A stretch of 64,000 nt of DNA from a virus: the IMG/VR virus record IMGVR_UViG_3300037509_000067, positions 30,952 through 94,951 of that record; one strand, 5' to 3'. Position numbers and translations under genes: made by a program. The notes under the pieces were generated by a model, which was not told where the DNA came from, did not search any database, and saw nothing but the letters and a program-made list of their open reading frames with translations. Shown here in pieces: positions 1,143 to 55,193 of the stretch (positions are counted from its first letter, which is position 1; every line of letters begins with the position of its first letter).

Positions 1143-2135
1143 ATGCCTATCAAAGGATTAACCGACAGAACAGCCAGCTTTCCGAAGCTAGGCACTATTC
1201 GCAAGGGAGCGCCAAAGACCGGGAACCGACCAGGGCAAGACCTAGACTACTTCCGGTTTGACTCGGCTGATGCCGAGCTGGAGAAAGCCTTTCTGGAAAT
1301 CTATGATCAGCAGCCACGGGAAATCAACGTATTCCTTCCTTACAAGACAACCGAACAAAACTTTTCCTCCTGGATGGAAGAGTGGGCAGCCTCTAGCTTG
1401 CTGAGACGATGTGACGGAGAGAACCAAGTTATCTGGCTCAACGACGATAAACGCACATATGGGAAAGGTCGTAAAGCCTGCTTAGGGTGTGACGGGAAGA
1501 CGGGTTGCAAGCCATCGGGACGCCTATTCGTTGTCATCCCAGAACTAAAACGACTTGGCTATGTGGAGGTGCAAACTCATAGCAAGTGGGACATTATGGG
1601 TCTGACAGAGAACTTGGTTGCAATCGAACAAGCAACGGGTGACCTGCGAGGCATCCCATTCAAACTGTGCCGTCGCCTTCGGAATATCTCAACCCCACGG
1701 GATAACGGAAGAGCGAGAGCGGACAAATGGCTTTTAGCGCTAGAAGTCGCGCCTCAGTGGTCAAGCAAGGTTTTGGAAGCATTGGAAAGCCGAGCTAATC
1801 GTGTTTTGATGGAACCCACCGCGACAATGGCTTCACCTCAAGCAACTGAGACTATTGAGGTTGTAAGCGTGGATGAGCCAATCAGACCTTCTCTCATTGA
1901 TCAAACCAACGAAGAACTCATGAGACTGGGGTGGAGCAACATCCAAGGGCGTGATTACCTATTACAAACCTACGGTAAGCGATCGCGCCAACTACTAACC
2001 GACGCCGAGTTACAAGACTTCCTGAAGCGGTTGCAAGCGATGGAGCCTGAAATAGAAACCGAAGAGGTCGAAGCTCAATATGAAAAACTGAAGCAATCCA
2101 GCCTCAGAGAACTCCAGCAAGACATGCAGCCGTAA
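1143..2135 (+). CDS. Gp3-like / recombination directionality factor-like phage recombination protein
   Basis: N-terminal FPKLGTIRKG...DLDYFRF and LRGIPFKLCRR motifs; C-terminal RLGW..QGRDYLLQTYGKRSRQLLTD cyanobacterial module. Confidence 0.6.
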   Translation: MPIKGLTDRTASFPKLGTIRKGAPKTGNRPGQDLDYFRFDSADAELEKAFLEIYDQQPREINVFLPYKTTEQNFSSWMEEWAASSLLRRCDGENQVIWLNDDKRTYGKGRKACLGCDGKTGCKPSGRLFVVIPELKRLGYVEVQTHSKWDIMGLTENLVAIEQATGDLRGIPFKLCRRLRNISTPRDNGRARADKWLLALEVAPQWSSKVLEALESRANRVLMEPTATMASPQATETIEVVSVDEPIRPSLIDQTNEELMRLGWSNIQGRDYLLQTYGKRSRQLLTDAELQDFLKRLQAMEPEIETEEVEAQYEKLKQSSLRELQQDMQP

Positions 2136-6695: not shown

Positions 6696-7493
6696 ATGCT
6701 CCAATCCACTTTCGCAGATCAATGCCAATGGCTGATGAATTCCTGCTTCGATTTGCAGGAAAAATACAAAGATCAAGTTGAGCAAATATCAAGACACTTA
6801 AAAGTTGAAGTAACTGGGGACACAGTTGTAATCGACATAAACCACCCCCAGAAGGAAGTTTTGCTTGCTAACGAATTATTGCTGCGTGGAGAATTCTTAA
6901 CAAAAAACGGAATAGGGCTTAAAGTATTGGTAGGAGGGGAAGTATTTGCCGATTTCCCCTCATCATCCATTACTATCACCAGAAGCTCTATGGTACCAAC
7001 AATCAACGATGTTTGGCAGGGAATTGAATCAAAATGGCTGGAGCGCGAATGGCGAGGAGTGTTTCCGAACCGTCAACGAATCCAGTCCTTGCAACAGAAT
7101 GATGGAACGGTTTACTTAATCTCGGCTCGCGAAGGAGGAAACAACGTAATCAAGGCGGTTTTCCCTTTTCTGGGGTTAGAAGATGTCCTAGCCACAAAAT
7201 CAGTCGGCTCGTTGATGAATAAGCCCGTAAGCTACTCTTTTGGGAAAAGAGAACCGGAAAGTGACGACCCAGCATTAGTGGGCGGCATTAGGGCAAGGGT
7301 AGCCGAAAAGGGCGCAGCAGAAGGATACTACCAGGAGAATTACGAATTTGTGTTCCACGGCGTGGTTCACGAACTTCAAGCCGAATACATGAGTCTAGAC
7401 AACTCTGACGATGAAGCAATCATTGTAGTGCGGAACCTAGACTCAATACAACGAGGCGGTTGGGTGCAGCGCCGTAAGCGACTCTTAGGTTAG
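6696..7493 (+). CDS. Hypothetical protein convergent on the repressor gene
   Basis: 265-aa ORF; function not recognised (C-terminal half possibly PAS-like). Confidence 0.7.
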   Translation: MLQSTFADQCQWLMNSCFDLQEKYKDQVEQISRHLKVEVTGDTVVIDINHPQKEVLLANELLLRGEFLTKNGIGLKVLVGGEVFADFPSSSITITRSSMVPTINDVWQGIESKWLEREWRGVFPNRQRIQSLQQNDGTVYLISAREGGNNVIKAVFPFLGLEDVLATKSVGSLMNKPVSYSFGKREPESDDPALVGGIRARVAEKGAAEGYYQENYEFVFHGVVHELQAEYMSLDNSDDEAIIVVRNLDSIQRGGWVQRRKRLLG

Positions 7494-8201
7494 ACTTTCC
7501 GCTCCATTTCGCCGTCCATTACCTTCTTGACAAACCTCGCTCCCACGAGCGGGGTTTTCTAATGCACTCACATAGTAGTAGTCATATAGTGGATTCCCAG
7601 AAATTTCTCTTAAAGCATAAGCTATTCCTCCGATCAACAATGGACCAGCCACCGCCCGACCATCAAGCATCCCTCTCACAATCTCCTCCCCTCCTGAGCC
7701 AGGAGCAAATTGGCACATCTCGATAAACCGAGTTGCCGCTGTGTCGAAGTCGGGGAAATCCCCGCGTGCCACAGCTGCATTCAGTTCATCAATAATTAAT
7801 CGACCGACAGGACTGCACATCTCTTTTCTGACTTCAAAATCGCCCCTTAGTCTATCGGATTCAGAACGCAAGGCGTTAATCTTATCAGAAATTTCTATCA
7901 GCAGATGCCGGGGTAGACCCCTCACCTCATCAATCACATAATCCGCTACCTCTTTCCCGACTACCAGGGCGCGTGCTTGTAAGAGGGTCTGACCTTGGTA
8001 TCGGGCAATTTTCTTGATTGAGCGGTCTGTGAGGAAAGCGACCCTCTCATCTCTCCAGCGTCGCACCAGTTCGTGGTCAACCCCTAACTTCTTGGCTAAG
8101 ATGCAGCCGCTCCCCTCTATGGCAATTTGTGTCTTCGTCCAGTGAGCAAGTGCCTTCTTGTCCAAATCCATACCCGTCTCTCTCTTCTCTTCTAGGTTCA
8201 C
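7485..8201 (-). CDS. Putative phage repressor (N-terminal HTH)
   Basis: LAKKLGVDHELVRRWRD HTH-like segment; divergent from the long rightward operon. Confidence 0.6.
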   Translation of the reverse strand: MNLEEKRETGMDLDKKALAHWTKTQIAIEGSGCILAKKLGVDHELVRRWRDERVAFLTDRSIKKIARYQGQTLLQARALVVGKEVADYVIDEVRGLPRHLLIEISDKINALRSESDRLRGDFEVRKEMCSPVGRLIIDELNAAVARGDFPDFDTAATRFIEMCQFAPGSGGEEIVRGMLDGRAVAGPLLIGGIAYALREISGNPLYDYYYVSALENPARGSEVCQEGNGRRNGAESLT

Positions 8202-8322
8202 TCTAATCTATCAGTTATCAAAATCAATAACTTGTGTTAATGAGCTTATCAGTTATTGGCGAATCCATTTACTTTGTTAGCTAATACATTTACTATTTCT
8301 GTAACAGCGCTGTTACAAGAAA
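8202..8322. promoter_or_regulatory. Divergent lysis/lysogeny switch region with candidate operators
   Basis: AT-rich gap between divergent genes; TATCAGTTAT direct repeats at 8209-8218 and 8247-8256. Confidence 0.5.
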
Positions 8323-8517
8323 ATGCACATCGAGACAACCGTAATGCGGGTTCCGCTTGCCTGGAAGCCCGTACTTCAAGACGCACTCCTGGAACTTGCT
8401 ATCAAGCGGGCAGCAAGCGATCGCAAACTCACTGCCGAATCCGAGAAGCAGCTGAGAGCGAGACTCCAGAAGCTAATCCGTAATGAACCTCAAACGAAAG
8501 GAACCTCATCCTTATGA
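8323..8517 (+). CDS. Small basic protein in Cro position
   Basis: 64 aa, first gene of the rightward operon, ATGA-coupled to the next gene. Confidence 0.5.
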   Translation: MHIETTVMRVPLAWKPVLQDALLELAIKRAASDRKLTAESEKQLRARLQKLIRNEPQTKGTSSL

Positions 8518-8981
8518 CGCAAGCATTATCCATTCTCCTGGAAACCTGGGGGCAGCTAGACCCAAAACGCCCCGTATGCGACGAGCCAATTGGCATCGTC
8601 AGCGAAGTGACAGAGGCGATCGAAAACAAGGGCTGGAAGCTCAAGACAGAATTAAAGCGAGGTACGTACCATGTTGCTTTGATTACCCCAATTGCAGATG
8701 GACTCACAGAGGCAGCCGTCTTCAAATGCGAGGAAGCCAAGCTAGCAGAGTTTTTACTCTCAGCGTACCTACACCTACTCAAGCGCGATCAAGGTCGGCA
8801 ACTAGAGCAACGAATTGTAGAAGTACAAAACCGACTTCATCACTATCTTGATCGACTAGAGCAGAGTCACCGCCTGCACGGGGATACCACAATGCGCCTA
8901 GCTCAGGCGATCAAGTTACTGGAATCAAAGGGTATTCGATTTAAGCCGGAATCTATTGTTGCTGATGAATTGGTGGGGTGA
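8514..8981 (+). CDS. Hypothetical phage protein (coiled-coil C-terminus)
   Basis: Overlapping stop/start codons on both sides. Confidence 0.7.
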   Translation: MTQALSILLETWGQLDPKRPVCDEPIGIVSEVTEAIENKGWKLKTELKRGTYHVALITPIADGLTEAAVFKCEEAKLAEFLLSAYLHLLKRDQGRQLEQRIVEVQNRLHHYLDRLEQSHRLHGDTTMRLAQAIKLLESKGIRFKPESIVADELVG

Positions 8982-9817
8982 CGATGGTAACAGCAACAGC
9001 CAAGGGACTTAGCAAGCCCATTACAGCAGCAGATAGAGAAGCCTTTAGTGTCAAGCAAACCCAAGAGCGTTGGGCAAGTTTGCGAGCTATCTGGAAGCAG
9101 ACAGGGATAACAAACGCGGACGCGGTTGACCCCACTACACTACCTCAACTAGTTCCACTAACGGAACAAAGGATTGCCGACTGCCTGAAGATACTTGATG
9201 AGTGTGAGCGGACTTGGCAGATCGAGCGACAGGTGATGATCTACTTCCACAATAGCGAGATTCATAAACACCCCTCAATCAACTGCGAAAGCTTTGGGTT
9301 ATTCCTAGCTCGAACATTCAGCAGGAAAAGACACCTTCGGTACCAGAAGGAAGTTGCGATCGCTCGTCGGGAAGAGTTACTGGGTATCCCCATCGCAACC
9401 TATTCCAGAGACCAATTCAGGAGAATGGAACGATTTAGGTGTTTTGTGCCAATAGGAGGAGTACAAGACAAAGCGGGTGGAAAACTTCAGGGGGTACGCC
9501 CTGGAGTGAAGCGAGACGAACTTCAGATTGCGCGACTGAAAGAATGCTGGCAGATTGCCTGTGAACTATCTGATTCAAACCGACCAGAAACCCACCACCT
9601 AGAGTCAGCCGCCGAAGAAATGAACCGGCGATACCCAGGGGAGTATCCGGATTTAAAACCCCGCAGCTCACGACAAATCTGGAAAAATCGAGCAATTACG
9701 GCAGAGAAAAAGCTCATCTCACTACAGAGCTGGGAAAAGCGGGCAATCCTAGCCGAAAATCGAGTCGCAGAACTAGAAACCAGACTAGCTCAACTAACCA
9801 CAGGAGCCAACAAATGA
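8978..9817 (+). CDS. Hypothetical phage protein
   Basis: 279 aa, coupled at both ends. Confidence 0.75.
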   Translation: MTMVTATAKGLSKPITAADREAFSVKQTQERWASLRAIWKQTGITNADAVDPTTLPQLVPLTEQRIADCLKILDECERTWQIERQVMIYFHNSEIHKHPSINCESFGLFLARTFSRKRHLRYQKEVAIARREELLGIPIATYSRDQFRRMERFRCFVPIGGVQDKAGGKLQGVRPGVKRDELQIARLKECWQIACELSDSNRPETHHLESAAEEMNRRYPGEYPDLKPRSSRQIWKNRAITAEKKLISLQSWEKRAILAENRVAELETRLAQLTTGANK

Positions 9818-10167
9818 GCCAACCAACTATCGACCAAATCAAGGCTCACTTACAAAAAGGTAGGGTTTCCCAGCTTTCGACTGAAGAAGCTATTTGCTGG
9901 ATCAGCTATCGAATGCTAGATGGGGAGGTTTACATGAGTGGCTTAACTCACTCTCCTCCACCCGGTTTTCAAATCTCCGACACTATCTGCGTTTGTGCGC
10001 TGCGGTGGCTGGAAAGTCGCAACGCAGTTTACGTCAACTTGTTCAATCCAAAATCAAGAGGGAGACCCCGTAGAATATACACCGCAAAAGACTTGAAGCT
10101 AGTCCAACAACTTGCCGACTTGTGGGGAGAATTTTTGCTAGGCAAGGAGCAACGCACATCCGCTTAG
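9814..10167 (+). CDS. PadR-family winged-helix protein, Pex (period extender)-like
   Basis: LSTEEAICWI, ISDT...ALRWLE, RGRPRRIY and LADLW match recalled cyanobacterial Pex motifs. Confidence 0.75.
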   Translation: MSQPTIDQIKAHLQKGRVSQLSTEEAICWISYRMLDGEVYMSGLTHSPPPGFQISDTICVCALRWLESRNAVYVNLFNPKSRGRPRRIYTAKDLKLVQQLADLWGEFLLGKEQRTSA

Positions 10168-13489: not shown

Positions 13490-13776
13490 GCATCCCACAG
13501 ACCAAATCGATTGTCTTACTGGAATCAATCGGCTTTGAGTATGGCTACCAGTTACTACCAGAAGCCTCTAATTACCAGGTAGACATCCACGGCGACATTG
13601 AAGAGTATTTGGGCTGGCAAATCCAGTCAAGCCCAGTATTCGCTGTAATCCACAAGGATGGGCACGTCTGGATACCGCTGTTTGAGGAGACAGAGGATGT
13701 CGAGCGGGTTAAGCGGTTGATTCGCAAGGGTGTGGAGCAAGACTTTGCAAGAGCGATGGGGGTGGAAAATGTCTGA
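13486..13776 (+). CDS. Hypothetical protein (paralog of 10550-10840)
   Basis: Coupled ORF with shared motifs. Confidence 0.7.
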   Translation: MSIPQTKSIVLLESIGFEYGYQLLPEASNYQVDIHGDIEEYLGWQIQSSPVFAVIHKDGHVWIPLFEETEDVERVKRLIRKGVEQDFARAMGVENV

Positions 13777-14992
13777 CACCCTCTCAGAACGCAGAAGGAA
13801 GCAAATCTATATTGATAGCAAGCTTGACGAACTACCGCTAACGATGGAAGCCTTTAGAGTCTACTGCCATTTAGCTCGACGGGCGGGAAGAGACGGTCAG
13901 GCTTTCCCTTCTTACAAGTCAATTGCTCAGTCATGCTTCAAAGGGTCTTTCCCTAATTCCTCCATCGATTCGCTTAGGCAAAAGGCGATCGCCGCAGTCA
14001 AAGAGCTTATTTCCTGGAACCTTATTGAAAAGAGAGAAGATTGTCGAGCTGATGGGTCACAAAGCACCAATCATTACGAATTAACTGACTTATCTGAATG
14101 GCTTGAAGAGCCGATCGAACCTTCAACCCTAGCACGCAAGCCAGGAACATTCCGAGGGAATCGATACACGAAAAAGCCTGAAGGTGGTAGCCCGGAACTA
14201 CCCACCCCAGTAGTCACCAACTACCACCCCAGTAGTCACCAACTACCACCCCTAGTAGTCACCAACTACCCTGTGGTAGCTACCGACTACTCCAATGAAG
14301 GTAATCCATATAAGGGCATCCAAATTGAAGGGTATCCAATTGAAGTCCCCCTTAGTCCCCCAGCGGGGGAATCAATCGAGTCAGTTCCCTCTGTTGAGAT
14401 TGCCGAGGAAGAAGTAAGCTCTTCTCCTTTGCAAGAAAAAGGCAGTGAGTTAACGCTACTCACTCCGCAACCAGATCTAGGGTTAGACAAACCTTCCGGG
14501 CAGCGTGTTGCAACAAAAGCAAAAAACAAAGAACTAATAAGCCAAGAGTTGCAATACTTCCTGGAAGCCTATCGAGCCGAAAAGCCCAGTAACTTTGTTG
14601 ACCATCGTGACTTGTCTCAGAAGCACATCAAGGCAATCAACAAACTGGCTAAGGAATATGGAACCCGCTCTCTGGAAATTTTTGTGGGTGCGCTGCGGTG
14701 GGTTCGAGAGCAGAAAAATGACTGGTGGAGGAAGGAATCATTCTCCCTCGATAACTTGATGAGCAATAGCAAGCTCACCGAGTACGCGGACAAGCACTTC
14801 TTTGCAATGGAGACCGATAAAGCTTACTGCGATCGCATAGAAGGCAGGGCGCTCTCTTACGACAAAGCGCGTAGCAACGGATTTTCAATCATCAATAAAA
14901 ACGGCGAACAGGTGACGGGGGCTAGTGCTGAGTGCGCCGAAGCCGTAGCAAATGACGCAATTCTGCAATTCTTCTTGGAGGCAAAAATATGA
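13769..14992 (+). CDS. Phage replication initiator (lambda O-like position, N-terminal wHTH)
   Basis: FRVYCHLARRAG...AFPSYKSIAQSC; internal iterons; followed by a loader-like gene. Confidence 0.8.
   Translation: MSDTLSERRRKQIYIDSKLDELPLTMEAFRVYCHLARRAGRDGQAFPSYKSIAQSCFKGSFPNSSIDSLRQKAIAAVKELISWNLIEKREDCRADGSQSTNHYELTDLSEWLEEPIEPSTLARKPGTFRGNRYTKKPEGGSPELPTPVVTNYHPSSHQLPPLVVTNYPVVATDYSNEGNPYKGIQIEGYPIEVPLSPPAGESIESVPSVEIAEEEVSSSPLQEKGSELTLLTPQPDLGLDKPSGQRVATKAKNKELISQELQYFLEAYRAEKPSNFVDHRDLSQKHIKAINKLAKEYGTRSLEIFVGALRWVREQKNDWWRKESFSLDNLMSNSKLTEYADKHFFAMETDKAYCDRIEGRALSYDKARSNGFSIINKNGEQVTGASAECAEAVANDAILQFFLEAKI
14209..14270 (+). repeat. Iteron-like tandem repeats, putative origin
   Basis: AGTAGTCACCAACTACC at 14209, 14231 and 14254 (22/23-bp spacing, which changes frame), with degenerate flanking copies. 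Confidence 0.75.
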
Positions 14993-15723: not shown

Positions 15724-15727
15724 TGTC

Positions 15728-16467: not shown

Positions 16468-16468
16468 G

Positions 16469-27474: not shown

Positions 27475-28203
27475 ATGCAAACTGACTCGCCCCCAATAGA
27501 TAAGCCACGCCCTTGGACGCAGCAGGAGTGTCGTGATCGCTACGTCCGTGGCACGAAGATCAGTTTGAAAGAGCTAGCAGTAGAGTCAGGGAATTCTTAT
27601 AAAACCATTAACAACTGGTCTCGGTTTGACGAGCCGAGGTGGTCTATCCAACGGAAAACCTTTGAGGCTGAGGTGAGGTCGAAGAGTGATAACAAGATAC
27701 TTGAGAAGACCAGTGATCTCACGTCTGATTTAGCCGTTGAACACCTTAATAGTTACCAGTCTGCACGGAAGGTTGCAGACGCCTACTTCCAGTGGCAGAA
27801 CCAGAGGATAGAGGAAGTCAAGGGCGTTCCAGAGCGACTAGAAGCCGAATTGAAATCAATCCGAGCCAGCAACATTAATTTTTGGCTTCTCTCCTTAGAA
27901 CGAGCAATCAACGGAGAACGGTTGGCGGCTGGTCTGGAGTGGGAGAATGTTCCCAAAGCGATCGCCTTTCTACAGAAGCTTGGTTATGTTATTACTGACC
28001 CTTCCCTCCCGCCTGCAACCGACGCCGAAGCAGAGCTTGAAGCTACGCCCAAAGGCTTCACCGACGAACAGGCAGGAGATATCAGAGCTAGAATCCTCGG
28101 TATTCCGCAAGGGACCACCAGTTCTACTCCCCTATCAGGCGAGGTGGATATCTGGCACAAAGAGGATTCAGATAGCCGAGAAGTCGCGCCGAGTCGGGAT
28201 TAG
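27475..28203 (+). CDS. Terminase small subunit-like protein
   Basis: N-terminal HTH (ISLKELAVESGNSYKTINNW); GFTDEQAGDIRARILGI resembles the end of Mu gp27-like proteins; precedes TerL. Confidence 0.7.
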   Translation: MQTDSPPIDKPRPWTQQECRDRYVRGTKISLKELAVESGNSYKTINNWSRFDEPRWSIQRKTFEAEVRSKSDNKILEKTSDLTSDLAVEHLNSYQSARKVADAYFQWQNQRIEEVKGVPERLEAELKSIRASNINFWLLSLERAINGERLAAGLEWENVPKAIAFLQKLGYVITDPSLPPATDAEAELEATPKGFTDEQAGDIRARILGIPQGTTSSTPLSGEVDIWHKEDSDSREVAPSRD

Positions 28204-29440
28204 TTGGGCTGATGCTGCGTTGTCTGCGCTCGACGCTTCTTGTATTAACGGCTGTGATACAAGCTATGTTGGTTACAATCACCAAATGGCAGAGCAATAC
28301 ATCACTGATGTAGCGTTCTGGGCTAAAGCTTATCAGATGATTGCCTCAACTATTGAGACAACAGTGTTGGAGGACGAAGGGAAAGATATTCTTGTCTATC
28401 GGGTCAAGTTTGCTACGGGATTCAAGGTGACAGCGCTCTCCTCTCGACCTTCTAACCTGCGATCGCGCAAAGGTAAGTTAGTCTTGGATGAGGCTGCGTT
28501 CCATGACGACTTAGGGGAACTCTTGAAGGCGGCTAATGCAATCGTGATGTGGGGTGGCTCTCGCCCTGGATTAGTGCGAATTATCTCAACTCATAATGGC
28601 GTTAACAACCGTTACAATCAGCTGTGCGAGGATGTTCGTTCTGGCAAACTGGACTACGACTTGCATCAAGTAACGTTATCTGATGCGATCGCCGACGGAC
28701 TCTTCAAGCGGATCTGCCTGATTAATGGGGAAGAATGGACGCTTGAGAAAGAATTCGCTTGGTACACTCAGCTCTACAAGGACTATGGTATCGGCGCTGA
28801 TGAAGAGCTAGGCTGCATCCCGCTTGACGTGAAGGGTGGTGGCATTGTCTTCAATCGCACCTGGTTTGAGATTGTCGATACCCACCCTCCCGTTCTCACG
28901 GCTCAAGTGCGTTTTTGGGATATGGCGTCAACTGCCCGCGAGTTCAATGCCGATGCTTTTTACACGGCGGGGCTGCATCTTGGTCGGGTTGGCAATGATT
29001 ACTACATTCTTCATCTATTGGCTGAGCAAGTTGGTCCAACAGACGGTGATGATTTGATTGTTGCAACAGCAAGCCAAGACGGTCGAAGGGTGCCTGTGCG
29101 TTGGGAATTAGAAGGTGGTTCTGCTGGGTTGAAGGTGGAGGCTAACTTGCGATCGCGTCTTCAAGGATTCGACGCCAGGGGAGTGAAGCCACTGGGCGAT
29201 AAATTGACCCGTGCCAAGCCCGTGGCAGGTGAAGCGAAGCGGGGTAATATTAAGTTGCTACGTGGTGCCTGGAATCAGATGTTTTTAGACGCTGTCCACG
29301 GGTTTGATGGGACTAGTCAGATACTGGTTAACGACGTGACAGACGCACTTTCAGGGGCTTATGGGGAAATTAGCAAGCCGGTGCTGGAGCCTGACTTTGG
29401 CACAATGGGAGATATTCAGTCCGTAACTAGTAGTTGGTAA
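27947..29440 (+). CDS. terL: Terminase large subunit (true start uncertain)
   Basis: LLPYQ, KSRRVG Walker A, LVLDEAAFH Walker B, RFWD nuclease motif. Confidence 0.92.
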   Translation: MFPKRSPFYRSLVMLLLTLPSRLQPTPKQSLKLRPKASPTNRQEISELESSVFRKGPPVLLPYQARWISGTKRIQIAEKSRRVGISWADAALSALDASCINGCDTSYVGYNHQMAEQYITDVAFWAKAYQMIASTIETTVLEDEGKDILVYRVKFATGFKVTALSSRPSNLRSRKGKLVLDEAAFHDDLGELLKAANAIVMWGGSRPGLVRIISTHNGVNNRYNQLCEDVRSGKLDYDLHQVTLSDAIADGLFKRICLINGEEWTLEKEFAWYTQLYKDYGIGADEELGCIPLDVKGGGIVFNRTWFEIVDTHPPVLTAQVRFWDMASTAREFNADAFYTAGLHLGRVGNDYYILHLLAEQVGPTDGDDLIVATASQDGRRVPVRWELEGGSAGLKVEANLRSRLQGFDARGVKPLGDKLTRAKPVAGEAKRGNIKLLRGAWNQMFLDAVHGFDGTSQILVNDVTDALSGAYGEISKPVLEPDFGTMGDIQSVTSSW

Positions 29441-47366: not shown

Positions 47367-50300
47367 ATGGGCAGTGTTGGCGCAGTTAGTATCAGCTTAG
47401 AACTAGACCGTTCCAAGTATGACAAGCAGATTAAGGAACTGCAAAAGTCAGACTTGGAGCTGACTGCTGACTTGTGCCTTGACACCAAAAAGTTCTTTTC
47501 TCAATTTGAAAAGTTAAAAGACGGCTTGGGATGCATCCCGGTTGAGCTGTGCCTTGACATTAAAAAGTTTGAAGCTGACATCAAGGCAATAAGCGATCAC
47601 ACTATTTCTATTCAAGCTGAGCTAATCATTGATAAAAAGCAGCTCGATAACCTCACCTCACAAGTCAGTGTTGAGGTAAGTACTTCTGGACAAGGAGCGA
47701 AACAGGCTGGGCAGGATTTCACAAATCAAATCAGTAAGGGTATGGAGGACGCCCTTACTGATGTTGCTCGTAACTCTGGGATGGAGGAGTTTGGCAAAGG
47801 GCTAATTAATAACTTAGCTGGTGCTTTACCTAAAACCCTGTTATTCCCCGTAAAAAATATTGCTGAGGGGTTTTTCATGGGGATTGGAGATAGCTTCTCC
47901 AAATCCTTGTCGCCTCAATTCACCAAGGTTTTCAAGCAACAAACGCCAACCATTCAAGCCTTTGCTGAGGATTTTGGAGATTTCTTCGGACAATCTTTAG
48001 AAGAGGGGCTAGTTAAGCTTGATATCTATAAGCGATTACCCAGAGGCACTCCTGCTACGCCTTTAAAACAGGCATCTACGCCAGCTTTGCCACCTGCCGC
48101 CGTGACTATTGATGTTATTCCTCTGAAGGAGCTTGATAGTACCTCCAAGACTCTGGTTGCAACATTTAAGCAACTAAATGATACGGTGGCTGCATCTGTT
48201 AAGGGATTGCAGACGTTAAGGACATCGCCTCAATCAACAGGTGCGTCTGGCACGTTTCTCAAGGGAGATGTGAGCAACATTACTGCCCCAGAGGCGCGAT
48301 CGCAAGTGGGGGAAGCGGTAGGCAAACTCAAAGGGAAGGTTGACCGATTGAGTAAGTCGGCTGACCCCGCCAAGCGTCAACAGCAGGTAGCACAGCTACT
48401 AGAAGAGATTGCTCGACTTGAAGCGCAAATTGATGCTGATGTTAAAAATAAAGATATCCCAGAATCTGTTAGGCGCTCTCTTGCCCAACTCAAGAGTAGG
48501 CGAACTACTACTAAAACGGTTAACATTGCCAAACTTAAAAGCAGTTTGGTTGAGTTTCAAGATGCTGGCTTGCAGGATGTTGAAAGTAAATCCAAAGAGT
48601 TATCTTCAATAATTGCTCAACTTGAGGCATCTTTCTCCGTGCCATCGCTTTCTAAGATGGCTAAGGGGATGTCGGGTTTAAGTTTATCTAAAGCCAGTTT
48701 AAAGTCACCAAATGAATTAAATAAATTAGCCTTAACTAATTATCAAAAGATATTTGAGGAATTAGCCAAGCGCTCTGGCTTGGATTCTGCCAAAGTTGCA
48801 GATTCAATGCCCCAGTTAAAGTTTGGTGGATTGCCGACAGGGGTTGCAGGTCGCTATAACCCAACAGGTAACGTCGTTCAACTCACTGGGGATTTTAGAA
48901 AAAAGTTAGCTAATTTCCAGTTAAGCAAAGATGACTTTGACACCATTGCTCACGAGATTCGCCATGCCTTTCAATTTAAATTAGGCAAGCTGTCTTTAGA
49001 AGATATTATTGGCAAGGGCGGTGCTGGAGTTGGGCTAAAATCCCTTGGGCTGGGCAAAGGAAGGGAAGGGGAGGTTGAGGCTTCCGTTCAAGATTTTAGG
49101 CAAGCGTTTAAACAACAGTTTGGCAGAAATCCAACTTATAAAATTATTGCTGCCGTTCGCAAATTAGAGGAAGATGCGACACAGTTTGCTAGTGAATCCA
49201 TTGCAGTTTATAGGCGTTTACTCCAAACTCCTGTCAGGTCAGGATTGAAGCAAGAGGGAGATTTCAGTGCGATCGCGTCTCAATTCAGTTCGCTCAGAGG
49301 GCAAGTTAAAGATGTGGCATCCCTTAAGCCTATTCTTGCCTTATTAAGGCGAGTTGAAGAGTTGCAGAAGAGTTTAGCCGAAGACATCCGCAACGAGGCA
49401 GACAAGGGCGTTAGAGAGCAACTGGGGCGGCTTAAGAACGTCCAGGTTTCTAAACTCCAGGGTGAAATCTCCCAGGTCTACCAAGGAGCTAAAGAAAAAA
49501 TAAAACCACCCAGTTTGGAACAAAAAGGGCGCGGTGCAAAACAGGTCAAAATTGCTCAGACCGATGAGTCGCTAACAAATTTAAAGTCTGAGTTTGAGCG
49601 ATTAAAACCTCAAGCCAAAGATGCCACATCTCTCAAGCCTTTGTTGAATGTTGTTCAACAAATGCGGAAACTCAGGGATGATGTCACTCGCGAGATTTCC
49701 GACCCTAAAACTTCTGCCAAAGAGAAACGCCGACTGGCTGAATTGCAAAGGTCGCAACTCAACCCCCTAGCAGGTGCGGTTGAGTCCGAATACGCCGCCA
49801 TCAAGAAGGGCGTCCGTAAAAGTATCGACGACCAGAATAAAGCTAGGCGGAAGTTTGAGCGACAACAAGATTTTGCCAAGAACCGTCCGGATGTTGAATT
49901 TTTAAGTGAAGGGTACTTCGACCGGGTATATCGGTGGGTAGAATCCACCATGTTCCGGCGCATGAGCAAGGCAGGGGTGAAGCCTAAAGAGCGTCGCACC
50001 TTGATGTCAGAAGCGGCAGGGATGGCTGTATCTGGTGCTGCCCTAGTTAACCCACTGGCAACAGCTGCTACTGCCTTGGCTCCCCTTGCTCCGGCGTTGG
50101 CTCCCCTGGCAATCACGGGCACCATGCTTTCTAGTCTCTTGACACCATTGATTCAGTCAATGGCAGAGACCTTAAAACGAATTGAGCCAGTTAAGAAGCG
50201 GTTTGAGTATTCCGGTGGCGGCAAAGAGGGAGGGAAACAGCAAGAGAAGTTTGCTCGTGGCATAGCCGAGGATTTAAACGTTCCTTTGGCGACGGCGATG

Positions 50301-53300
50301 GATGAATATTCAAAGTTAGCATCAGCTGCCAAAAATACAGCATTAGAAGGTCAACCTGTTCAAGAGTTGTTTGAAGGAATTTCATTATCGGTGAAGGCAC
50401 TGGGAGCTAACACTGATGATGCACGCCTCATCTACTATGCCTTCACCCAGATGCTCAGCAAGGGCAGAATCAGTATGGAGGAGCTACGTCAACAGCTTGG
50501 GGAAAAATTTCCGCCAGCAATTGGCACGTTTGCCCGTGCAATGGGTGTTTCTGTACAGCAGTTTAATAAGTTGGTTGAAACTGGTAGCTTAGTCTCTTCC
50601 GAGGTTTTGCCCAAGGTCGCTAAGCAGCTAAAAGCCGAGTTTGGTGAAGCAGCACGATCATCTGCTACCACCTTCACTAGTGCAATGGTGCGGATTGAGA
50701 ATGCTGTATTTAAAACTCAAGAAGCCTTAGCTGAAATGTTTGCCCCAGTCTTGACAGTATTTGCCAATTTCTTTGCTATGTTGCAGAACTTTATTGGCTC
50801 CAATATTGGAAGTATTGTTAAGGTGTTGGGGGCGGCATTGATTGGGGTGACCGCTCAGTTCCTTGTGGGTCTTACCGTCATTCTCAAAGGGACTGGGTTG
50901 GTGGCAACAATGACCAATGCCTTGGCTCCCTTATTTGGTCGCGTATTTGCCACCCTTACCCCGTTTGCTGTTGGGGTGATGGTTGATTTCATGGATGACG
51001 TGCTAGGCGCTCAGCACTCGGTCATGGAAAACATGACTAACTTTTTCGCCAACGCAGTAATTGGTATTTTTCTGACACTAGAAGGATTGGCAAAAAAGAT
51101 AGGAGAGTTATTTGAAGGGTTTGGTGGTGGAGGTGGAGGTGACTTCTTTGGCGGAATTGTCAACGAATTAAAGTCTCTTTATAGCTTGATTCCCAGTAGC
51201 GTGATTGAGTTTGGCGCACTGTTCGTCATGCTCACTCAGATGTCTGCATTGTTTAAACTGCAAATTCTTTCGCAACTTATGTGGATAGGTGACGCAATTA
51301 AAATGACCGGAAAAGCATTTTTGGAAAGCGCTAGAAACGGCAAGGTTTTTCAGTCGTCGCTCAATACTTTAACGGCAGGTTTTAGTAAACTGCGGGAAAT
51401 TGCCACGTTTGCCGCTGCCTCACTGGTTGTTCTGTTCTTTGCTAAAGCTGATTTCTCCGACCCGCTTAGAAAGTCGTTTGAGAATTTAGCAGATGGCGCA
51501 GTTAGTAGTTTTAAACGGATTGAAGAGGCGGTAGACGGAGTTAAAGGGAAAGTTGGTGAAATCCCTAACGAGATGCCCGACTTTAAATCCAAAGGATTTG
51601 ATTTAACTGTAGGGTTGGGTGAGCAGTTTGGGGGAGGTGCATTCCGCACAGATGACATCATTAAAATGATTCGGGATGCTCAACTAGGCTATGAAAAATC
51701 CCTACTTGGAAGTGGACAAATTAATCAAGGAGAATACGAAGAGCGAACCCAAAACATTAAAGACAAAACTATAACGGTAGCCGAGAAAAATTTTCAAGAC
51801 AGAATCATCAAGCTTCAAGAGTTATCAGAAACTATTGGTGCAAGCATAGATAAAGCTGGAATCTTGAAACCTGGATTTGCTCAGAATGAAGCTGGCAAGG
51901 GATTAACAGAAGTCAAAAATATTGATAAGCAAGTATTTGACCTTCAACGCCAACGAGTTGACCGCATGGATGCGGGTTATAAACCAGAAAGCGATGACGT
52001 TATTATTCAAATTGATAAACGAGTTAATGAGTTATTAAAGCAGCGCTCTGAAGCTCAAAAACGCATCCAATCTGTTGCCACTGAAATCATTAAGGGTTCG
52101 GATACTCTTGGCGAAGTAGTCAAAGCAATTAAGGAAAATACAGAAATCCCCGAATCTGCCAAGCAACAAGCTATTGATTTATTAAATCCTATTATTGCTC
52201 AATCGGCACAAGCCAAAGAGAAGCTTGAGGAGATGGGAGCGGTTGACTTGTCTCCACTAACTGAGCAATTCCAAAAAGTCAAAAAACGCCTAGATGAAAC
52301 TCAAATAAGTTTTGACAAGTTCAACGCCAAGTTAACATTAAGTCAATCGCAGGGACAAGCAGGTATTCAAGAGCGGGCAGCGTCGGGGGCAATCAATGAC
52401 GACCAAGCCAAGAAACAAAGCATCCAGTTAGAACAACAGGGGTTAAGCGAACGGCTGAAGAAGCTGCGGGAATATGTAAGCGATCGCAAGGACATGTTGC
52501 GCGACTTGTACGCCATTCCCAATCCCACGGACGACCAAAAAAAGCTCATCGACGACACCAAAAAGGAAATTGAAAAATCAGAATTAGAAACCGCTCAGAC
52601 TCGGATACAGTTGGCGCAGAAGGTATTAGAAGGCAAGCGGACGACCGAACAACAGGCACTGGAGGAATTGAGGAGGGCAAACACAGCCGCTCAGTCAGTT
52701 GCTCAAAAAACTGAGAGCGAACGCGTCGGACGAATTAAAGGTTTACAAGTCTCTGGACTGATTCAGCCAGAGGATGCCGAGAAACTGATTGGGGACGAGC
52801 AAACTAGAGCCGCTAAAGAGCAAGCACGGCAACAGATTGAAGCGGCGAACAATCAAATCGAAACAACTAGACGACTGCGATCGCAAAATATAATTGATGT
52901 CCGTCGCGCTGGGGAATTAGAGCGGGAAGCTAATCAACAAATTGCCGAGGCTAACCTGAAAATTATTGAGGCTGAGCTTCAAGCCAGGGAACGGGCTAAG
53001 CAGCGCCGGATTCAACAGATTGAGGAAATTACCGCTAAGGAGTCAGCGACTCAGGCGCAGAAGTTTTCTGATGCTTCTCAAGGGGTAAAGTCTCGCCAAC
53101 TAGGAGGCAAACTAACCGATGATGAAGCATCCCGCGAACAGAGCCAGCTGGAGATAGTCGATACAGAGGAGCGCCTCAAGCTCAAGCAACTGGAGCTATC
53201 TCGCACCAAACAATTACGCAACGAAGGGACTTTGTCACTTAAAGAGTACACGGGGAAGGAGCGTCAGTTGCTCCAAGACATCGAGCAGATGGAGAGTCAG

Positions 53301-55193
53301 TTACTCGACCAACAGCTGCAACGAGAGAAGCTGCGGAAAGAGGCGCGAATCAAGGCAATTGAGGATGTAAATCAGGCACGGGAAAAAGCTGTAGTACTGT
53401 CCACCACTCGGCGCGTTGAAGATGTCAAGTCGGAGCGGGCAGACCTTGAAGCGGCGGGAGCTGACCCAGAAGTAACCAAACGGGAAAGCGATGCAAAAAT
53501 CTCCCAAATCGAAGCAGATGCCGTACAGCAGCGCCTTGCCCTCAAGCGGAAAGAGTTTGCCGATAATCAGATGTTGGTGGCAGAAGGGACTAGGACTCGT
53601 GTTGAAGGAGCCAAGGTTGAGGCTGACCTCCTCAAGGAGATTGCGGACTTAGAAGTAGAAGTAGTTGATAAACAGTTAGAAGCTAACGAGCGGCTGCGTG
53701 AGGCACGGATTAAGGCGATAGAAGAGGCAAACAAGCTGGCTGAGGAAACAGTTGCCTTGTCTCAAGCTACAAGGATTACAGCCGTTAAAGAGTCTCAAGC
53801 TACTGGGGGATATGGAATAGATCCAGAGGCAGCGAAAAGGGAGGCAGAGCGACGCATCTCCGAAATTGAACAGGATGGCGTTCAAGAACGCATTCAGCTC
53901 AAACAGAAAGAACTCTCAGACGAGAAATCATTGATACAGGCTGGTCTTCGCAGTCGTGAGGAGGGGAACGCCAATGTTCGCCGACTTACCCAAGACCTTG
54001 CTCAGCTCAACCAAGAAGCCGTTGACAAGGAAATTGCCCAGCAAGATCGCCTTCGAGACGAGCGCACTCGTACAGCTGAAGAATATCTACGAACTAGAGA
54101 GTCCCAAGCTAATCAAGCGGTCGCATCCATTGAGCGAGAGAAAGATGCCAACGACTTACTACAGGAATCCATCAGTCGCACCAACTCCTTGATGGAGAGT
54201 CGGGTGAAGCTATCTAAAGCTGTGGCTGATGCTCAAATTTCCCAAGGGGAAGGGCAACTTAAGGCTACAGAACGAGCACTTGAATTATCCAAGAAATTAA
54301 AGGAAAAAAATCTAGATCCTCAAAAACGCGAACTCTACCGTTCTCAGTTATCACAGCTAGGATTTTCTCCAGATACGTCTGAAATGGAAATCCTGAACCG
54401 CAAGTTTCAAATCGAAGATGCGATCGCACAACTAAAAGCTAAGTCTCAAGAGCAGGAACTGCAATCTCAAATGCAGTTGCTGGAATTAGAAAATAAGCGT
54501 AGAATCTTGCAATCTCAAGCCGCAGTGCAAGATAAGGAGATGGAACGACTAAAAGTTGAGCAAGACATTCTTGTTAAACAAGGAGAATTGGATAAAGCTA
54601 TCATCAACGGAAACCAACAAGCCATTGTGATTGCAAACATTGATTTGCAAATTGCTAAAGATAAATTAAGTATTTCTGATCAGCAATTAGCCAGCGCTCA
54701 GGCAAATTTAGCGGTGCAACAGGAAATATCGGCAGAGGAGATGGCAGCTATGCAAGCAACGCAGGCAGTAGCCAGAGAGCAGATTAAGACTGAGGAGCTA
54801 TTAAGGAAGCAGCGTCAACAAGAGGAGATGCCGACTAGGAACTGGTTTAAACCGTTACCCCCTGGTCGCGCCAATGGCGGCTTTGTAACAGCTAAGAACA
54901 CATATATGGTAGGTGAACGTGGACCGGAATTATTTATTCCATCCACAAACGGGCAAATTGTCTCTAATGCGGCATTAACTTCTAAATCCTATTCAGCAGT
55001 TAACACATCCATTCCTAAAACGTCAGCGCCAACAGTAGCAGCAGGGGGATTTAACCGAGATGTAGTTACAGAGTTGCAAAAGCTTAACAATAGCCTTGGT
55101 AAAATGGCATCAGAGCCACGTTCAATCAGCGTGAATACAGCAAATCCGTTAGGTGATACGCTCAAAATCTTAAGCAATATGAATCGACCTTGA
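47367..55193 (+). CDS. Tape measure protein (2608 aa) with an internal HEXXH domain
   Basis: ELRQQLGEKFPPAIGTFARAMG tape-measure domain; C-terminal RANGG...VGERGPELF; HEIRH at 48951-48965. Confidence 0.93.
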   Translation: MGSVGAVSISLELDRSKYDKQIKELQKSDLELTADLCLDTKKFFSQFEKLKDGLGCIPVELCLDIKKFEADIKAISDHTISIQAELIIDKKQLDNLTSQVSVEVSTSGQGAKQAGQDFTNQISKGMEDALTDVARNSGMEEFGKGLINNLAGALPKTLLFPVKNIAEGFFMGIGDSFSKSLSPQFTKVFKQQTPTIQAFAEDFGDFFGQSLEEGLVKLDIYKRLPRGTPATPLKQASTPALPPAAVTIDVIPLKELDSTSKTLVATFKQLNDTVAASVKGLQTLRTSPQSTGASGTFLKGDVSNITAPEARSQVGEAVGKLKGKVDRLSKSADPAKRQQQVAQLLEEIARLEAQIDADVKNKDIPESVRRSLAQLKSRRTTTKTVNIAKLKSSLVEFQDAGLQDVESKSKELSSIIAQLEASFSVPSLSKMAKGMSGLSLSKASLKSPNELNKLALTNYQKIFEELAKRSGLDSAKVADSMPQLKFGGLPTGVAGRYNPTGNVVQLTGDFRKKLANFQLSKDDFDTIAHEIRHAFQFKLGKLSLEDIIGKGGAGVGLKSLGLGKGREGEVEASVQDFRQAFKQQFGRNPTYKIIAAVRKLEEDATQFASESIAVYRRLLQTPVRSGLKQEGDFSAIASQFSSLRGQVKDVASLKPILALLRRVEELQKSLAEDIRNEADKGVREQLGRLKNVQVSKLQGEISQVYQGAKEKIKPPSLEQKGRGAKQVKIAQTDESLTNLKSEFERLKPQAKDATSLKPLLNVVQQMRKLRDDVTREISDPKTSAKEKRRLAELQRSQLNPLAGAVESEYAAIKKGVRKSIDDQNKARRKFERQQDFAKNRPDVEFLSEGYFDRVYRWVESTMFRRMSKAGVKPKERRTLMSEAAGMAVSGAALVNPLATAATALAPLAPALAPLAITGTMLSSLLTPLIQSMAETLKRIEPVKKRFEYSGGGKEGGKQQEKFARGIAEDLNVPLATAMDEYSKLASAAKNTALEGQPVQELFEGISLSVKALGANTDDARLIYYAFTQMLSKGRISMEELRQQLGEKFPPAIGTFARAMGVSVQQFNKLVETGSLVSSEVLPKVAKQLKAEFGEAARSSATTFTSAMVRIENAVFKTQEALAEMFAPVLTVFANFFAMLQNFIGSNIGSIVKVLGAALIGVTAQFLVGLTVILKGTGLVATMTNALAPLFGRVFATLTPFAVGVMVDFMDDVLGAQHSVMENMTNFFANAVIGIFLTLEGLAKKIGELFEGFGGGGGGDFFGGIVNELKSLYSLIPSSVIEFGALFVMLTQMSALFKLQILSQLMWIGDAIKMTGKAFLESARNGKVFQSSLNTLTAGFSKLREIATFAAASLVVLFFAKADFSDPLRKSFENLADGAVSSFKRIEEAVDGVKGKVGEIPNEMPDFKSKGFDLTVGLGEQFGGGAFRTDDIIKMIRDAQLGYEKSLLGSGQINQGEYEERTQNIKDKTITVAEKNFQDRIIKLQELSETIGASIDKAGILKPGFAQNEAGKGLTEVKNIDKQVFDLQRQRVDRMDAGYKPESDDVIIQIDKRVNELLKQRSEAQKRIQSVATEIIKGSDTLGEVVKAIKENTEIPESAKQQAIDLLNPIIAQSAQAKEKLEEMGAVDLSPLTEQFQKVKKRLDETQISFDKFNAKLTLSQSQGQAGIQERAASGAINDDQAKKQSIQLEQQGLSERLKKLREYVSDRKDMLRDLYAIPNPTDDQKKLIDDTKKEIEKSELETAQTRIQLAQKVLEGKRTTEQQALEELRRANTAAQSVAQKTESERVGRIKGLQVSGLIQPEDAEKLIGDEQTRAAKEQARQQIEAANNQIETTRRLRSQNIIDVRRAGELEREANQQIAEANLKIIEAELQARERAKQRRIQQIEEITAKESATQAQKFSDASQGVKSRQLGGKLTDDEASREQSQLEIVDTEERLKLKQLELSRTKQLRNEGTLSLKEYTGKERQLLQDIEQMESQLLDQQLQREKLRKEARIKAIEDVNQAREKAVVLSTTRRVEDVKSERADLEAAGADPEVTKRESDAKISQIEADAVQQRLALKRKEFADNQMLVAEGTRTRVEGAKVEADLLKEIADLEVEVVDKQLEANERLREARIKAIEEANKLAEETVALSQATRITAVKESQATGGYGIDPEAAKREAERRISEIEQDGVQERIQLKQKELSDEKSLIQAGLRSREEGNANVRRLTQDLAQLNQEAVDKEIAQQDRLRDERTRTAEEYLRTRESQANQAVASIEREKDANDLLQESISRTNSLMESRVKLSKAVADAQISQGEGQLKATERALELSKKLKEKNLDPQKRELYRSQLSQLGFSPDTSEMEILNRKFQIEDAIAQLKAKSQEQELQSQMQLLELENKRRILQSQAAVQDKEMERLKVEQDILVKQGELDKAIINGNQQAIVIANIDLQIAKDKLSISDQQLASAQANLAVQQEISAEEMAAMQATQAVAREQIKTEELLRKQRQQEEMPTRNWFKPLPPGRANGGFVTAKNTYMVGERGPELFIPSTNGQIVSNAALTSKSYSAVNTSIPKTSAPTVAAGGFNRDVVTELQKLNNSLGKMASEPRSISVNTANPLGDTLKILSNMNRP

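What the first reader, a model, noticed from the sequence alone, without database searches (positions are those of the whole stretch)
9814..10167. Phage-encoded homolog of the cyanobacterial circadian period extender Pex
Seen: LSTEEAICWI...Y...L...FQISDTICVCALRWLE...RGRPRRIY...LADLW. This follows, motif by motif, the recalled Pex pattern LS.E.A.CY....Y..EL....YRLSDTVLY.A.KFLE...RGRPRRMY...LA.LW. Established: Pex is a dark-induced PadR-family repressor of kaiA that lengthens the clock period. Inference: an early phage gene could retune or antagonise the host clock, by DNA binding or heterodimer formation, to time lysis or lysogeny to the day/night cycle.
Basis: partly seen in the sequence, partly recalled or inferred. 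Interest (0 to 1): 0.8.

Follow-up and report, generated by a model that had tools for sequence, protein, structure and literature searches.

The report
Divergent Pex-like regulator in a cyanophage
A tailed virus of soil-crust cyanobacteria carries a small DNA-binding protein related to Pex, a regulator of the cyanobacterial day-night clock. It belongs to an old, fast-evolving phage branch of that family rather than being a copy of the host gene, so an effect on the clock is possible but unproven.

Summary
ORF 9814..10167 (+, 117 aa) is real and under purifying selection (dN/dS 0.16 against a 79%-identical orthologue).

- **Homology to Pex:** its best solved relatives by sequence and by predicted fold are the three Pex crystal structures. 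A profile built only from 103 cellular Pex proteins scores it 52.6 bits, against 20 bits or less for ordinary cyanobacterial PadR paralogues. In trees it falls in the Pex branch (99-100% support).
- **Phage setting:** it lies in a ~96 kb tailed-phage record with terminase, portal, head, tail and tape-measure genes. It is the fourth gene of a conserved operon next to a divergent regulatory region and upstream of the replication genes.
- **Not a host pex copy:** it is 30-37% identical to cellular Pex and sits outside the canonical clade. It keeps only 24 of the 63 positions that are at least 90% conserved in cellular Pex. [quoted passage not shown]
- **Relatives:** its nearest relatives lie in phage- or mobile-element-like contigs. 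Cultured Nodularia phages carry another Pex-like gene annotated only as "PadR".

My reading is a phage-lineage Pex-like winged-helix regulator whose DNA target is unknown. Manipulation of the host clock is untested; I put it at about 0.15-0.2. I found no paper describing phage Pex homologues.

The parts
9814..10167 (+). Pex-like PadR-type winged-helix gene (117 aa, P0001). Predicted elements: helix 6-14, alpha1 23-34, alpha2 41-46, recognition helix alpha3 56-68, beta-wing 72-91 carrying R82-G-R84-P-R86-R87, C-terminal helix 94-116.
8978..9817 (+). Conserved 279-aa all-helical protein of unknown function. Its stop overlaps the start of the Pex-like gene. It is found upstream of the Pex-like gene in L002 and L003, but also without one in L137.
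8514..8981 (+). Conserved 155-aa protein of unknown function, second gene of the operon.
8323..8517 (+). 64-aa first gene of the rightward operon, conserved in L002 and L003.
8202..8322 (.). Divergent intergenic control region. It holds tandem 21-nt repeats at 8253-8294 and a perfect 18-bp palindrome TGTAACAGCGCTGTTACA at 8300-8317, both conserved in the related contig L002. Which protein binds them is unknown.
7485..8201 (-). Divergently transcribed 238-aa gene with a weak HTH match (phrog_1763, E 0.006). Possible repressor-like partner of the control region.
13730..14992 (+). Replication-initiator-like gene (HTH_36; PHROG replication initiation protein) downstream. It marks the region as the early/replication module.

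Best explanation
The gene encodes a small dimeric winged-helix DNA-binding protein of the Pex branch of the PadR family (single-domain type with one C-terminal dimerisation helix). It belongs to a divergent branch carried by phages and other mobile elements, not to the cellular pex orthologues.

It is the fourth gene of a conserved rightward operon (64 aa, 155 aa, 279 aa, Pex-like). The operon starts at a divergent control region and lies upstream of the replication genes, so the protein is probably made early in infection.

I infer that it acts as a transcription regulator. It would bind DNA through its alpha-3 helix (conserved S55-D56-T57) and its arginine-rich wing (R82-G-R84-P-R86-R87). 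Its specificity or affinity probably differs from that of cellular Pex, because the alpha-3 tyrosine and many other Pex-invariant positions are replaced. The most likely targets are promoters of the phage itself; host promoters are the alternative.

Shown: the gene, its selection, its fold, its family placement, its phage context and its synteny. Inferred: dimerisation, DNA binding, early expression and the target.
For: - **Gene and selection:** the ORF is real. dN/dS is 0.16 (dS 0.92) against the 79%-identical orthologue in L002.
- **Family:** the best PDB sequence hits are Pex only. The cellular-Pex HMM scores it 52.6 bits, against 20 bits or less for six generic cyanobacterial PadR paralogues. 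Trees separate Pex-like from generic PadR at 100/98 and 99/99.
- **Fold:** AF2 pLDDT is 93.9 with wHTH topology plus a C-terminal helix. Foldseek's top three matches are Pex.
- **DNA-binding elements kept:** Y40 (the Tyr20 equivalent of PadR), the S55-D56-T57 motif and RGRPRR are the most conserved columns of the whole Pex-like set. R84 aligns with R106 of S. elongatus Pex (alignment).
- **Phage context:** TerL, portal, head, major tail, a 2608-aa ORF at 47367..55193 that I take to be the tape measure (from its size and position after the tail genes; I did not search it), helicase and replication initiator are present. The record is an IMG/VR virus record, 89% complete.
- **Phage or mobile-element lineage:** the nearest relatives P0002 and P0003 share the operon. 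P0035, a member of P0004's 90% cluster, lies beside ThyX and a dGTP diphosphohydrolase. P0016 lies beside ThyA, DHFR and Tmk. P0005 shares a contig with a KilA-N gene about 3 kb away. P0011 lies near ParA.
- **Other viruses:** Nodularia phage gp071 scores 62.9 bits on the cellular-Pex HMM and is the only strong viral fold match.
- **Divergence from cellular Pex:** only 24 of 63 Pex-conserved columns are kept, and the alpha-3 Tyr is V60.
Against: - No operator was identified. The PadR-type ATGT-N8-ACAT motif is not enriched in the window (20 matches against 22 expected), and no recurrent palindrome family was found in the genome.
- The repeats and palindrome in the control region cannot be assigned to this protein rather than to the neighbouring HTH proteins.
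- The Pex-like branch was seen only in cyanobacteria and cyanophage-like DNA. That fits a cyanobacterium-specific, possibly host, target at least as well as a purely phage target.
- Loss of the alpha-3 Tyr could mean weak or no DNA binding rather than changed specificity.
- There is no expression evidence.
Confidence: 0.55

Rival explanations
1. Host-clock mimic. The phage protein binds the Pex operator upstream of host kaiA, or other members of the host Pex regulon, and represses it. This would shift the host KaiABC clock output to a state or phase that favours the phage.
For: - The protein shows specific homology to Pex.
- The SDT start of alpha-3 and the RGRPRR wing are conserved, including the residue aligned with R106.
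- Pex is reported to be exclusive to cyanobacteria and to repress kaiA (PMC5520375, PMC12000584, PMC10781874).
- In the phage collection and in BFVD, Pex-like proteins appeared only in cyanophages.
- G315, the cyanobacterial genome with the closest copy of the phage's IS element (85% identity), carries both kaiA and pex.
Against: - Identity to cellular Pex is only 30-37%, and 39 of 63 Pex-invariant columns are changed, including the alpha-3 Tyr hot spot and the beta-strand GYWKK.
- The gene sits in a separate old clade, not a recent capture.
- Loss of pex changes the period by only about 1 h (PMC12000584). Repressing transcription of kaiA would act slowly relative to a lytic cycle (inference).
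- Some cyanobacteria have two or three cellular Pex paralogues, so the family need not be dedicated to kaiA.
- The host is unidentified.
Confidence: 0.18
2. Anti-Pex. The phage protein forms inactive heterodimers with host Pex through the shared N-terminal and C-terminal helices. This would relieve kaiA repression (a dominant-negative mechanism).
For: - The C-terminal helix motif LA.LW (A101, W104) and the N-terminal helix are shared with cellular Pex.
- Loss of the alpha-3 Tyr would suit a DNA-binding-deficient partner (PMC5728393).
Against: - The strongest conservation in the phage clade lies in the DNA-contacting SDT and RGRPRR elements. That argues for retained DNA binding.
- Overall identity is low.
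Confidence: 0.07
3. A generic PadR-family or other wHTH regulator whose likeness to Pex is superficial, or an ORF that is not a functional gene.
For: Pfam's PadR model and NCBIfam give no hit for the protein itself.
Against: - Pex-only PDB hits.
- 52.6 bits on the cellular-Pex HMM, against 20 bits or less for generic PadR paralogues.
- Tree support of 99-100%.
- The Pex structures are the best fold matches.
- dN/dS of 0.16 and conserved synteny in three contigs.
Confidence: 0.03

Closest known systems
Pex (period extender) of Synechococcus elongatus PCC 7942 and Anabaena sp. PCC 7120 (PDB 2E1N, 2ZFW, 2DQL)
   Same: - Same fold and length class: an N-terminal helix, a winged helix-turn-helix and a single C-terminal helix.
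- Best sequence and fold match.
- Shared motifs: L21, E24, A26, Y40, S55-D56-T57, A62-L63, L66-E67, R82-G-R-P-R-R87, Y89, A101 and W104.
   Different: - Encoded by a phage, not a cell.
- 26-29% identity over the structural alignments, and 30-37% to cellular Pex genes.
- Three-residue shorter alpha2-alpha3 connection (SPPPG).
- The alpha-3 VLYS is ICVC here (Tyr lost), and the beta-strand GYWKK is VNLFN.
- Only 24 of 63 Pex-conserved columns are kept.
- Outside the canonical clade.
- No evidence on kaiA binding or period.
Nodularia phage vB_NspS-kac65/kac68 and vB_NpeS-2AV2 'PadR family transcriptional regulator' (e.g. QBQ73515.1, gp071)
   Same: - A Pex-like small wHTH protein encoded by phages of filamentous cyanobacteria, placed among replication genes.
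- Scores 62.9 bits on the cellular-Pex HMM.
- The only strong viral fold match of the model (E 5e-8).
   Different: - Only about 26% identical to the window's protein.
- A different subclade, paired with P0013.
- The wing reads TRGAKRKIY instead of SRGRPRRIY.
- Annotated only as PadR. I found no paper noting the Pex relation.
PadR subfamily-2 regulators (LmrR, bcPadR1/2; Pfam PF03551)
   Same: - Single-domain wHTH with one C-terminal dimerisation helix.
- Conserved alpha-2 Tyr and basic beta-2/wing (PMC3506622, PMC5728393).
   Different: - PF03551 does not detect this protein.
- Fold matches are much weaker (E 1e-3 or worse, TM 0.5-0.6).
- The family's alpha-3 motif EGT(L/I)YPxLxRLE is SDTICVCALRWLE here.
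- The canonical ATGT-N8-ACAT operator is not enriched in the phage.

Membership tests
Pex-like branch of the PadR family (broad sense) | Closer in sequence to Pex than to other PadR proteins | tested here: met
   Only Pex among the significant PDB hits. 52.6 bits on an HMM of 103 cellular Pex, against 20 bits or less for generic cyanobacterial PadR paralogues. Clade support 100/98 and 99/99.
Pex-like branch of the PadR family (broad sense) | Winged helix-turn-helix with an N-terminal helix and a single C-terminal helix (Pex/PadR-s2 architecture) | tested here: met
   AF2 pLDDT 93.9, elements H6-14, H23-34, H41-46, H56-68, E72-77, E86-91, H94-116. Pex structures are the top three matches, TM 0.71-0.78.
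Pex-like branch of the PadR family (broad sense) | Arginine-rich wing motif GRGRPRRMY, including the residue aligned with R106 of S. elongatus Pex (reported essential for DNA binding; from my own recollection of Arita et al. 2007, which I could not read here) | tested here: met
   SRGRPRRIY at 81-89. R84 aligns with R106 by the numbering of the 2zfw alignment. G83 is invariant, and R84, P85 and R86 are at least 94% conserved in 34 relatives.
Pex sensu stricto (cellular clock input factor, orthologue of S. elongatus pex) | Orthology: falls within the clade of cellular Pex | tested here: not met
   Lies in a separate clade with P0002-P0004 (97/93), outside the canonical group. 30-37% identity to the best locus in each of 93 cyanobacterial genomes.
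Pex sensu stricto (cellular clock input factor, orthologue of S. elongatus pex) | Conservation of the positions that are near-invariant in cellular Pex, including alpha-3 YRLSDTVLYSALKFLE | tested here: not met
   24 of the 63 columns that are at least 90% conserved are kept. The alpha-3 Tyr is V60 and VLYS is ICVC.
Pex sensu stricto (cellular clock input factor, orthologue of S. elongatus pex) | Binds the kaiA upstream region and represses kaiA | not testable with these tools
   The papers that define the operator (Kutsuna 2007, Kurosawa 2009, Arita 2007) are not held. The host is unidentified. The kaiA upstream region of proxy genome G315 was extracted and inspected by eye, and showed nothing obviously alike.
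Pex sensu stricto (cellular clock input factor, orthologue of S. elongatus pex) | Lengthens the circadian period; accumulates in darkness | not testable with these tools
   Requires reporter assays. No RNA run was listed for this DNA.
PadR family (Pfam PF03551) | Match to the family profile above its gathering score | tested here: not met
   No PF03551 hit up to E 10 for the protein, nor in the six-frame scan of the whole virus record. 22 of its 34 relatives do match, so this is divergence, not exclusion from the superfamily.
PadR family (Pfam PF03551) | DNA-binding hot-spot residues Tyr20, Tyr42 and Lys67 (B. subtilis PadR numbering; PMC5728393) | tested here: inconclusive
   The Tyr20 equivalent is kept (Y40) and the basic beta-2 residues are kept (R86, R87). 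The Tyr42 equivalent is replaced by V60. The mapping uses the motifs in PMC3506622, not a structural superposition on the DNA complex.

The most novel reading that the evidence does not exclude
Phages of filamentous cyanobacteria have repeatedly kept Pex-derived regulators so that they can reach into the host's circadian system. This covers the biocrust phage here, the Nodularia phages and several metagenomic lineages. The phage proteins would occupy Pex operators at kaiA or other Pex-controlled promoters, or titrate host Pex. Either way the host would be held in a clock state favourable to replication, or the lysis-lysogeny decision would be tied to time of day. This would be the first virus-encoded component of a prokaryotic circadian clock pathway.
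Probability: 0.15. Interest if true: 0.9.

Novelty: new variant of a known kind. Interest (0 to 1): 0.5.

Why it matters
Pex is described as one of four clock factors found only in cyanobacteria (PMC5520375). I found no paper that mentions a viral homologue.

This work shows that a divergent Pex-like branch exists on phages and other mobile elements of cyanobacteria. It includes cultured Nodularia phages, where the gene is labelled only "PadR".

- If these proteins touch the host Pex regulon, they would be the first example of a virus interfering with a bacterial circadian clock. The cultured Nodularia phage-host pairs would make this directly testable.
- If they regulate only phage genes, the result still matters in two ways. 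It shows that the Pex fold is a wider regulator family than the single clock function suggests. It also cautions against annotating such genes as clock components from motif likeness alone.

Tried and rejected
- **Pfam, NCBIfam, PHROGs:** none detects the protein itself.
- **Word-indexed protein search:** found only one relative. The exhaustive representative search was needed.
- **The search for related loci with broad alignments:** failed for lack of a conserved stretch. With the single protein it found nothing in viral contigs.
- **tblastn of a canonical Pex against 50,697 phage records:** no match.
- **Operator hunt:** ATGT-N8-ACAT is not enriched. A genome-wide search for recurrent palindromic half-sites gave nothing. 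The palindrome at 8300-8317 is unique in the window.
- **kaiA upstream region of proxy genome G315:** I extracted it and looked at it by eye, and nothing obviously alike to the phage control region stood out.
- **Primary Pex papers:** PMC2168723 and PMC107145 are not held.
- **Lifestyle:** no tyrosine or serine recombinase was found in the 96 kb record, so lysogeny is neither shown nor excluded.
- **Host:** the best IS-element match (G315) carries no name, and its pex region matched none of the named loci.
- **Expression:** no RNA holder is listed for this DNA.
- **Neighbouring 279-aa protein:** no family hit, only weak leads from the Atlas, a moderate AF2 model (pLDDT 69.5) and no PDB fold match.
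- **Rejected:** that the gene lies in host DNA flanking a prophage. It sits between phage regulatory, replication and structural genes.
- **Rejected:** that it is a decaying pseudogene (dN/dS 0.16).

Full report
**1. The observation**

The window holds an ORF at 9814..10167 on the + strand that encodes 117 residues. Its ATG overlaps the TGA of the preceding 279-aa ORF (ATGA at 9814-9817), and an AGGAG lies about 8 nt upstream.

These are 2dql_A from Anabaena (E 7.6e-10) and 2e1n_A/2zfw_A from S. elongatus (E about 3e-6). The alignments cover residues 18-109 and include LS.EEAIC, Y40, SDT, AL..LE, RGRPRR.Y and LA.LW.

The gene is under purifying selection. Against its 79%-identical orthologue on a JGI metagenome contig (L002), dN is 0.145, dS is 0.92 and dN/dS is 0.16.

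**2. What it is**

An AlphaFold2 model built on 34 relatives is confident (pLDDT 93.9). It shows an N-terminal helix, a winged helix-turn-helix and one long C-terminal helix.

- Foldseek against the PDB ranks the Pex structures first to third (E 4.7e-9 to 2e-7, TM 0.71-0.78). There is then a gap to ordinary PadR proteins (E 1e-3 or worse, TM 0.5-0.6).
- Pfam's PadR model does not see the protein itself, but it matches 22 of its 34 relatives.
- I built an HMM from 103 cellular Pex genes only. The genes came from named cyanobacterial genomes, and their representative P0015 matches the Pex structures at E 3e-52.
- That HMM scores the phage protein 52.6 bits. Six generic PadR paralogues from three cyanobacterial genomes score 20 bits or less.
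- In two maximum-likelihood trees the Pex-like sequences separate from generic PadR with 100/98 and 99/99 support.

**3. It is a divergent, phage-lineage member, not a host pex copy**

- Against 401 cyanobacterial genomes the protein finds a Pex-like locus in 93 of them, usually one per genome. Identity is only 26-37%.
- In the trees it forms a well-supported clade with P0002 and P0003 (99/91-92) and P0004 (97/93). This clade lies outside the group of cellular Pex.
- Cellular Pex is very constrained: 63 of the 117 aligned columns are at least 90% conserved in 103 sequences. The phage protein keeps 24 of them and differs at 39.
- The differences include the alpha-3 segment, VLYS becoming I58-C59-V60-C61, and the beta-strand GYWKK becoming VNLFN.
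- The lost tyrosine corresponds to the Tyr of the PadR-s2 motif EGT(L/I)YPxLxRLE (PMC3506622) and to Tyr42 of B. subtilis PadR. Replacing Tyr42 by alanine lowers DNA affinity more than 100-fold (PMC5728393).
- The most conserved columns of the whole Pex-like set are kept: Y40 (the Tyr20 equivalent), S55 (invariant), D56, T57, G83 (invariant), R84, P85 and R86. R84 aligns with R106 of S. elongatus Pex.

I conclude that DNA binding is probably retained. Its specificity or strength is unlikely to be the same as that of cellular Pex.

**4. Context**

The window is part of an IMG/VR virus record of 96,178 bp, linear and estimated 89% complete.

- **Phage genes:** a Mu-type large terminase (27947..29440), portal (30497..), head protein (41116..), major tail protein (45316..), helicase (22237..), a replication-initiator-like protein (13730..14992) and a methyltransferase-like giant ORF. 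The 2608-aa ORF at 47367..55193 is probably the tape measure, judged from its size and its position after the tail genes; I did not search it.
- **Operon:** the Pex-like gene is the fourth gene of a rightward operon (64 aa, 155 aa, 279 aa, Pex-like).
- **Control region:** the operon starts at a divergent intergenic region (8202-8322), opposite a 238-aa gene with a weak HTH match. The region holds tandem 21-nt repeats and a perfect 18-bp palindrome. It is conserved in L002.
- **Synteny:** the four-gene order is conserved in L002, and the 155-aa, 279-aa and Pex-like genes are also conserved in L003. The 279-aa gene also occurs without a Pex-like neighbour.
- **Lifestyle:** no integrase was found. 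An RDF-like Gp3 protein is present at 1143..2135. Lifestyle stays open.
- **Habitat and host:** the DNA is held by biocrust and soil metagenome runs. An IS605/TnpB element in the phage (4791..6008) has its closest copies, at 85% identity, in one 7.3 Mb cyanobacterial genome. That genome also has kaiA and pex. The host is therefore almost certainly a cyanobacterium, but it is not identified.

**5. A wider pattern**

The divergent Pex-like relatives lie in phage- or mobile-element-like surroundings.

- P0035, a member of P0004's 90% cluster, lies beside ThyX and a dGTP diphosphohydrolase.
- P0016 lies in a long co-directional array with ThyA, DHFR, thymidylate kinase and ferritin.
- P0005 shares a contig of small genes with a KilA-N gene about 3 kb away.
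- P0011 lies near ParA.
- In the collection of 50,697 phage records, only nine records of Nodularia phages matched. Their gp071, annotated "PadR family transcriptional regulator", scores 62.9 bits on the cellular-Pex HMM.
- gp071 is also the only strong match of my model in the viral structure library (E 5.4e-8, with the next match at 8e-4).
- Two 188-kb IMG/VR records carry a much more canonical Pex (56-58% identical to P0015). Their viral nature is unclear.
- Some cyanobacteria have two or three cellular Pex paralogues beside response-regulator and HEAT-repeat genes.

**6. How it most likely works**

What is shown is a selected, well-folded, Pex-branch winged-helix protein encoded in the regulatory and replication part of a tailed cyanophage.

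I infer that it dimerises through its terminal helices, as PadR-s2 proteins and Pex do (PMC3506622, PMC5728393, PMC10781874). It would bind DNA with alpha-3 and the arginine wing and regulate transcription early in infection.

- **Best reading (0.55):** a phage-lineage regulator whose specificity has drifted from that of cellular Pex, most likely acting on phage promoters.
- **Clock-mimic reading (0.18):** it rests on homology and on the cyanobacteria-only distribution. It is weakened by the divergence at Pex-invariant positions, by the old separate clade, and by the small, slow effect of Pex on the clock (about 1 h; PMC12000584).
- **Dominant-negative anti-Pex (0.07):** this cannot be excluded.
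- **Not identified:** I could not find an operator. The PadR consensus is not enriched and no recurrent palindrome was found.

**7. Novelty**

Full-text searches found no paper combining Pex with cyanophage, PadR with cyanophage in a relevant sense, or "period extender" with phage. Schmelling et al. describe Pex as exclusive to cyanobacteria (PMC5520375). The earlier notes of this scan held nothing on it.

I rate it a new variant of a known kind, namely a phage-borne, divergent branch of the Pex family. Interest is moderate as it stands and high if a clock link were shown.

Noticed in passing
window 8202-8322 (also L002 8450-8575): The divergent control region holds tandem 21-nt repeats (8253-8294) and a perfect 18-bp palindrome TGTAACAGCGCTGTTACA (8300-8317) just before the first gene of the operon. 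All of this is conserved in a related contig. These are likely operators of the phage's genetic switch; the binding protein is unknown.
   Followed up: partly
L127 3959-4294 (Nodularia phage vB_NspS-kac65v162 gp071, QBQ73515.1): The 'PadR family transcriptional regulator' of cultured Nodularia phages is a Pex-like protein. It scores 62.9 bits on a cellular-Pex HMM and is the best viral fold match. It lies between a GNAT gene and DNA polymerase genes. This gives a tractable system for testing phage Pex-like genes.
   Followed up: partly
L128 5968-6348 and L129 (IMG/VR records of about 188 kb): Two virus-classified records, one called a provirus, carry a near-canonical Pex (56-58% identical to cellular Pex). 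It lies beside PAPS-reductase, ResIII-helicase and LRR genes. No TerL_ATPase was found in them, so they may be host islands rather than phages.
   Followed up: partly
L088, L091, L093 (genome G001); L096, L097 (genome G002): Single cyanobacterial genomes carry two or three Pex-like paralogues, all scoring at least 148 bits on the Pex-like HMM. The extra copies lie beside response-regulator and HEAT/PBS-lyase genes. The cellular Pex family may therefore do more than repress kaiA.
   Followed up: partly
window 4791-6008 (-), 60705-61892 (-); G000 13688-14947 (-): There are three IS605-type OrfB/TnpB (Cas12f-like TNB) genes in one phage genome. The copy at 4791-6008 is 85% identical at the DNA level to copies in one 7.3 Mb cyanobacterial genome, which is a possible clue to the host.
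   Followed up: partly
window 27947-29440: The large terminase is of the Mu/BcepMu type (45% identity to Burkholderia phage BcepMu gp28 over 62% of its length). This is unusual company for a ~96 kb siphovirus-like cyanophage with a replication initiator.
   Followed up: no
window 1143-2135; G000 15701-16573; G000 28321-28950: An RDF-like Gp3 protein (PF18897, E 2e-34), a Bro-N protein and a 2OG-Fe(II) oxygenase are present, yet no integrase was found in the record.
   Followed up: no
window 8978-9817: A conserved 279-aa all-helical protein is translationally coupled to the Pex-like gene. It has no family, no fold match and only five relatives in 5.8 billion proteins.
   Followed up: yes
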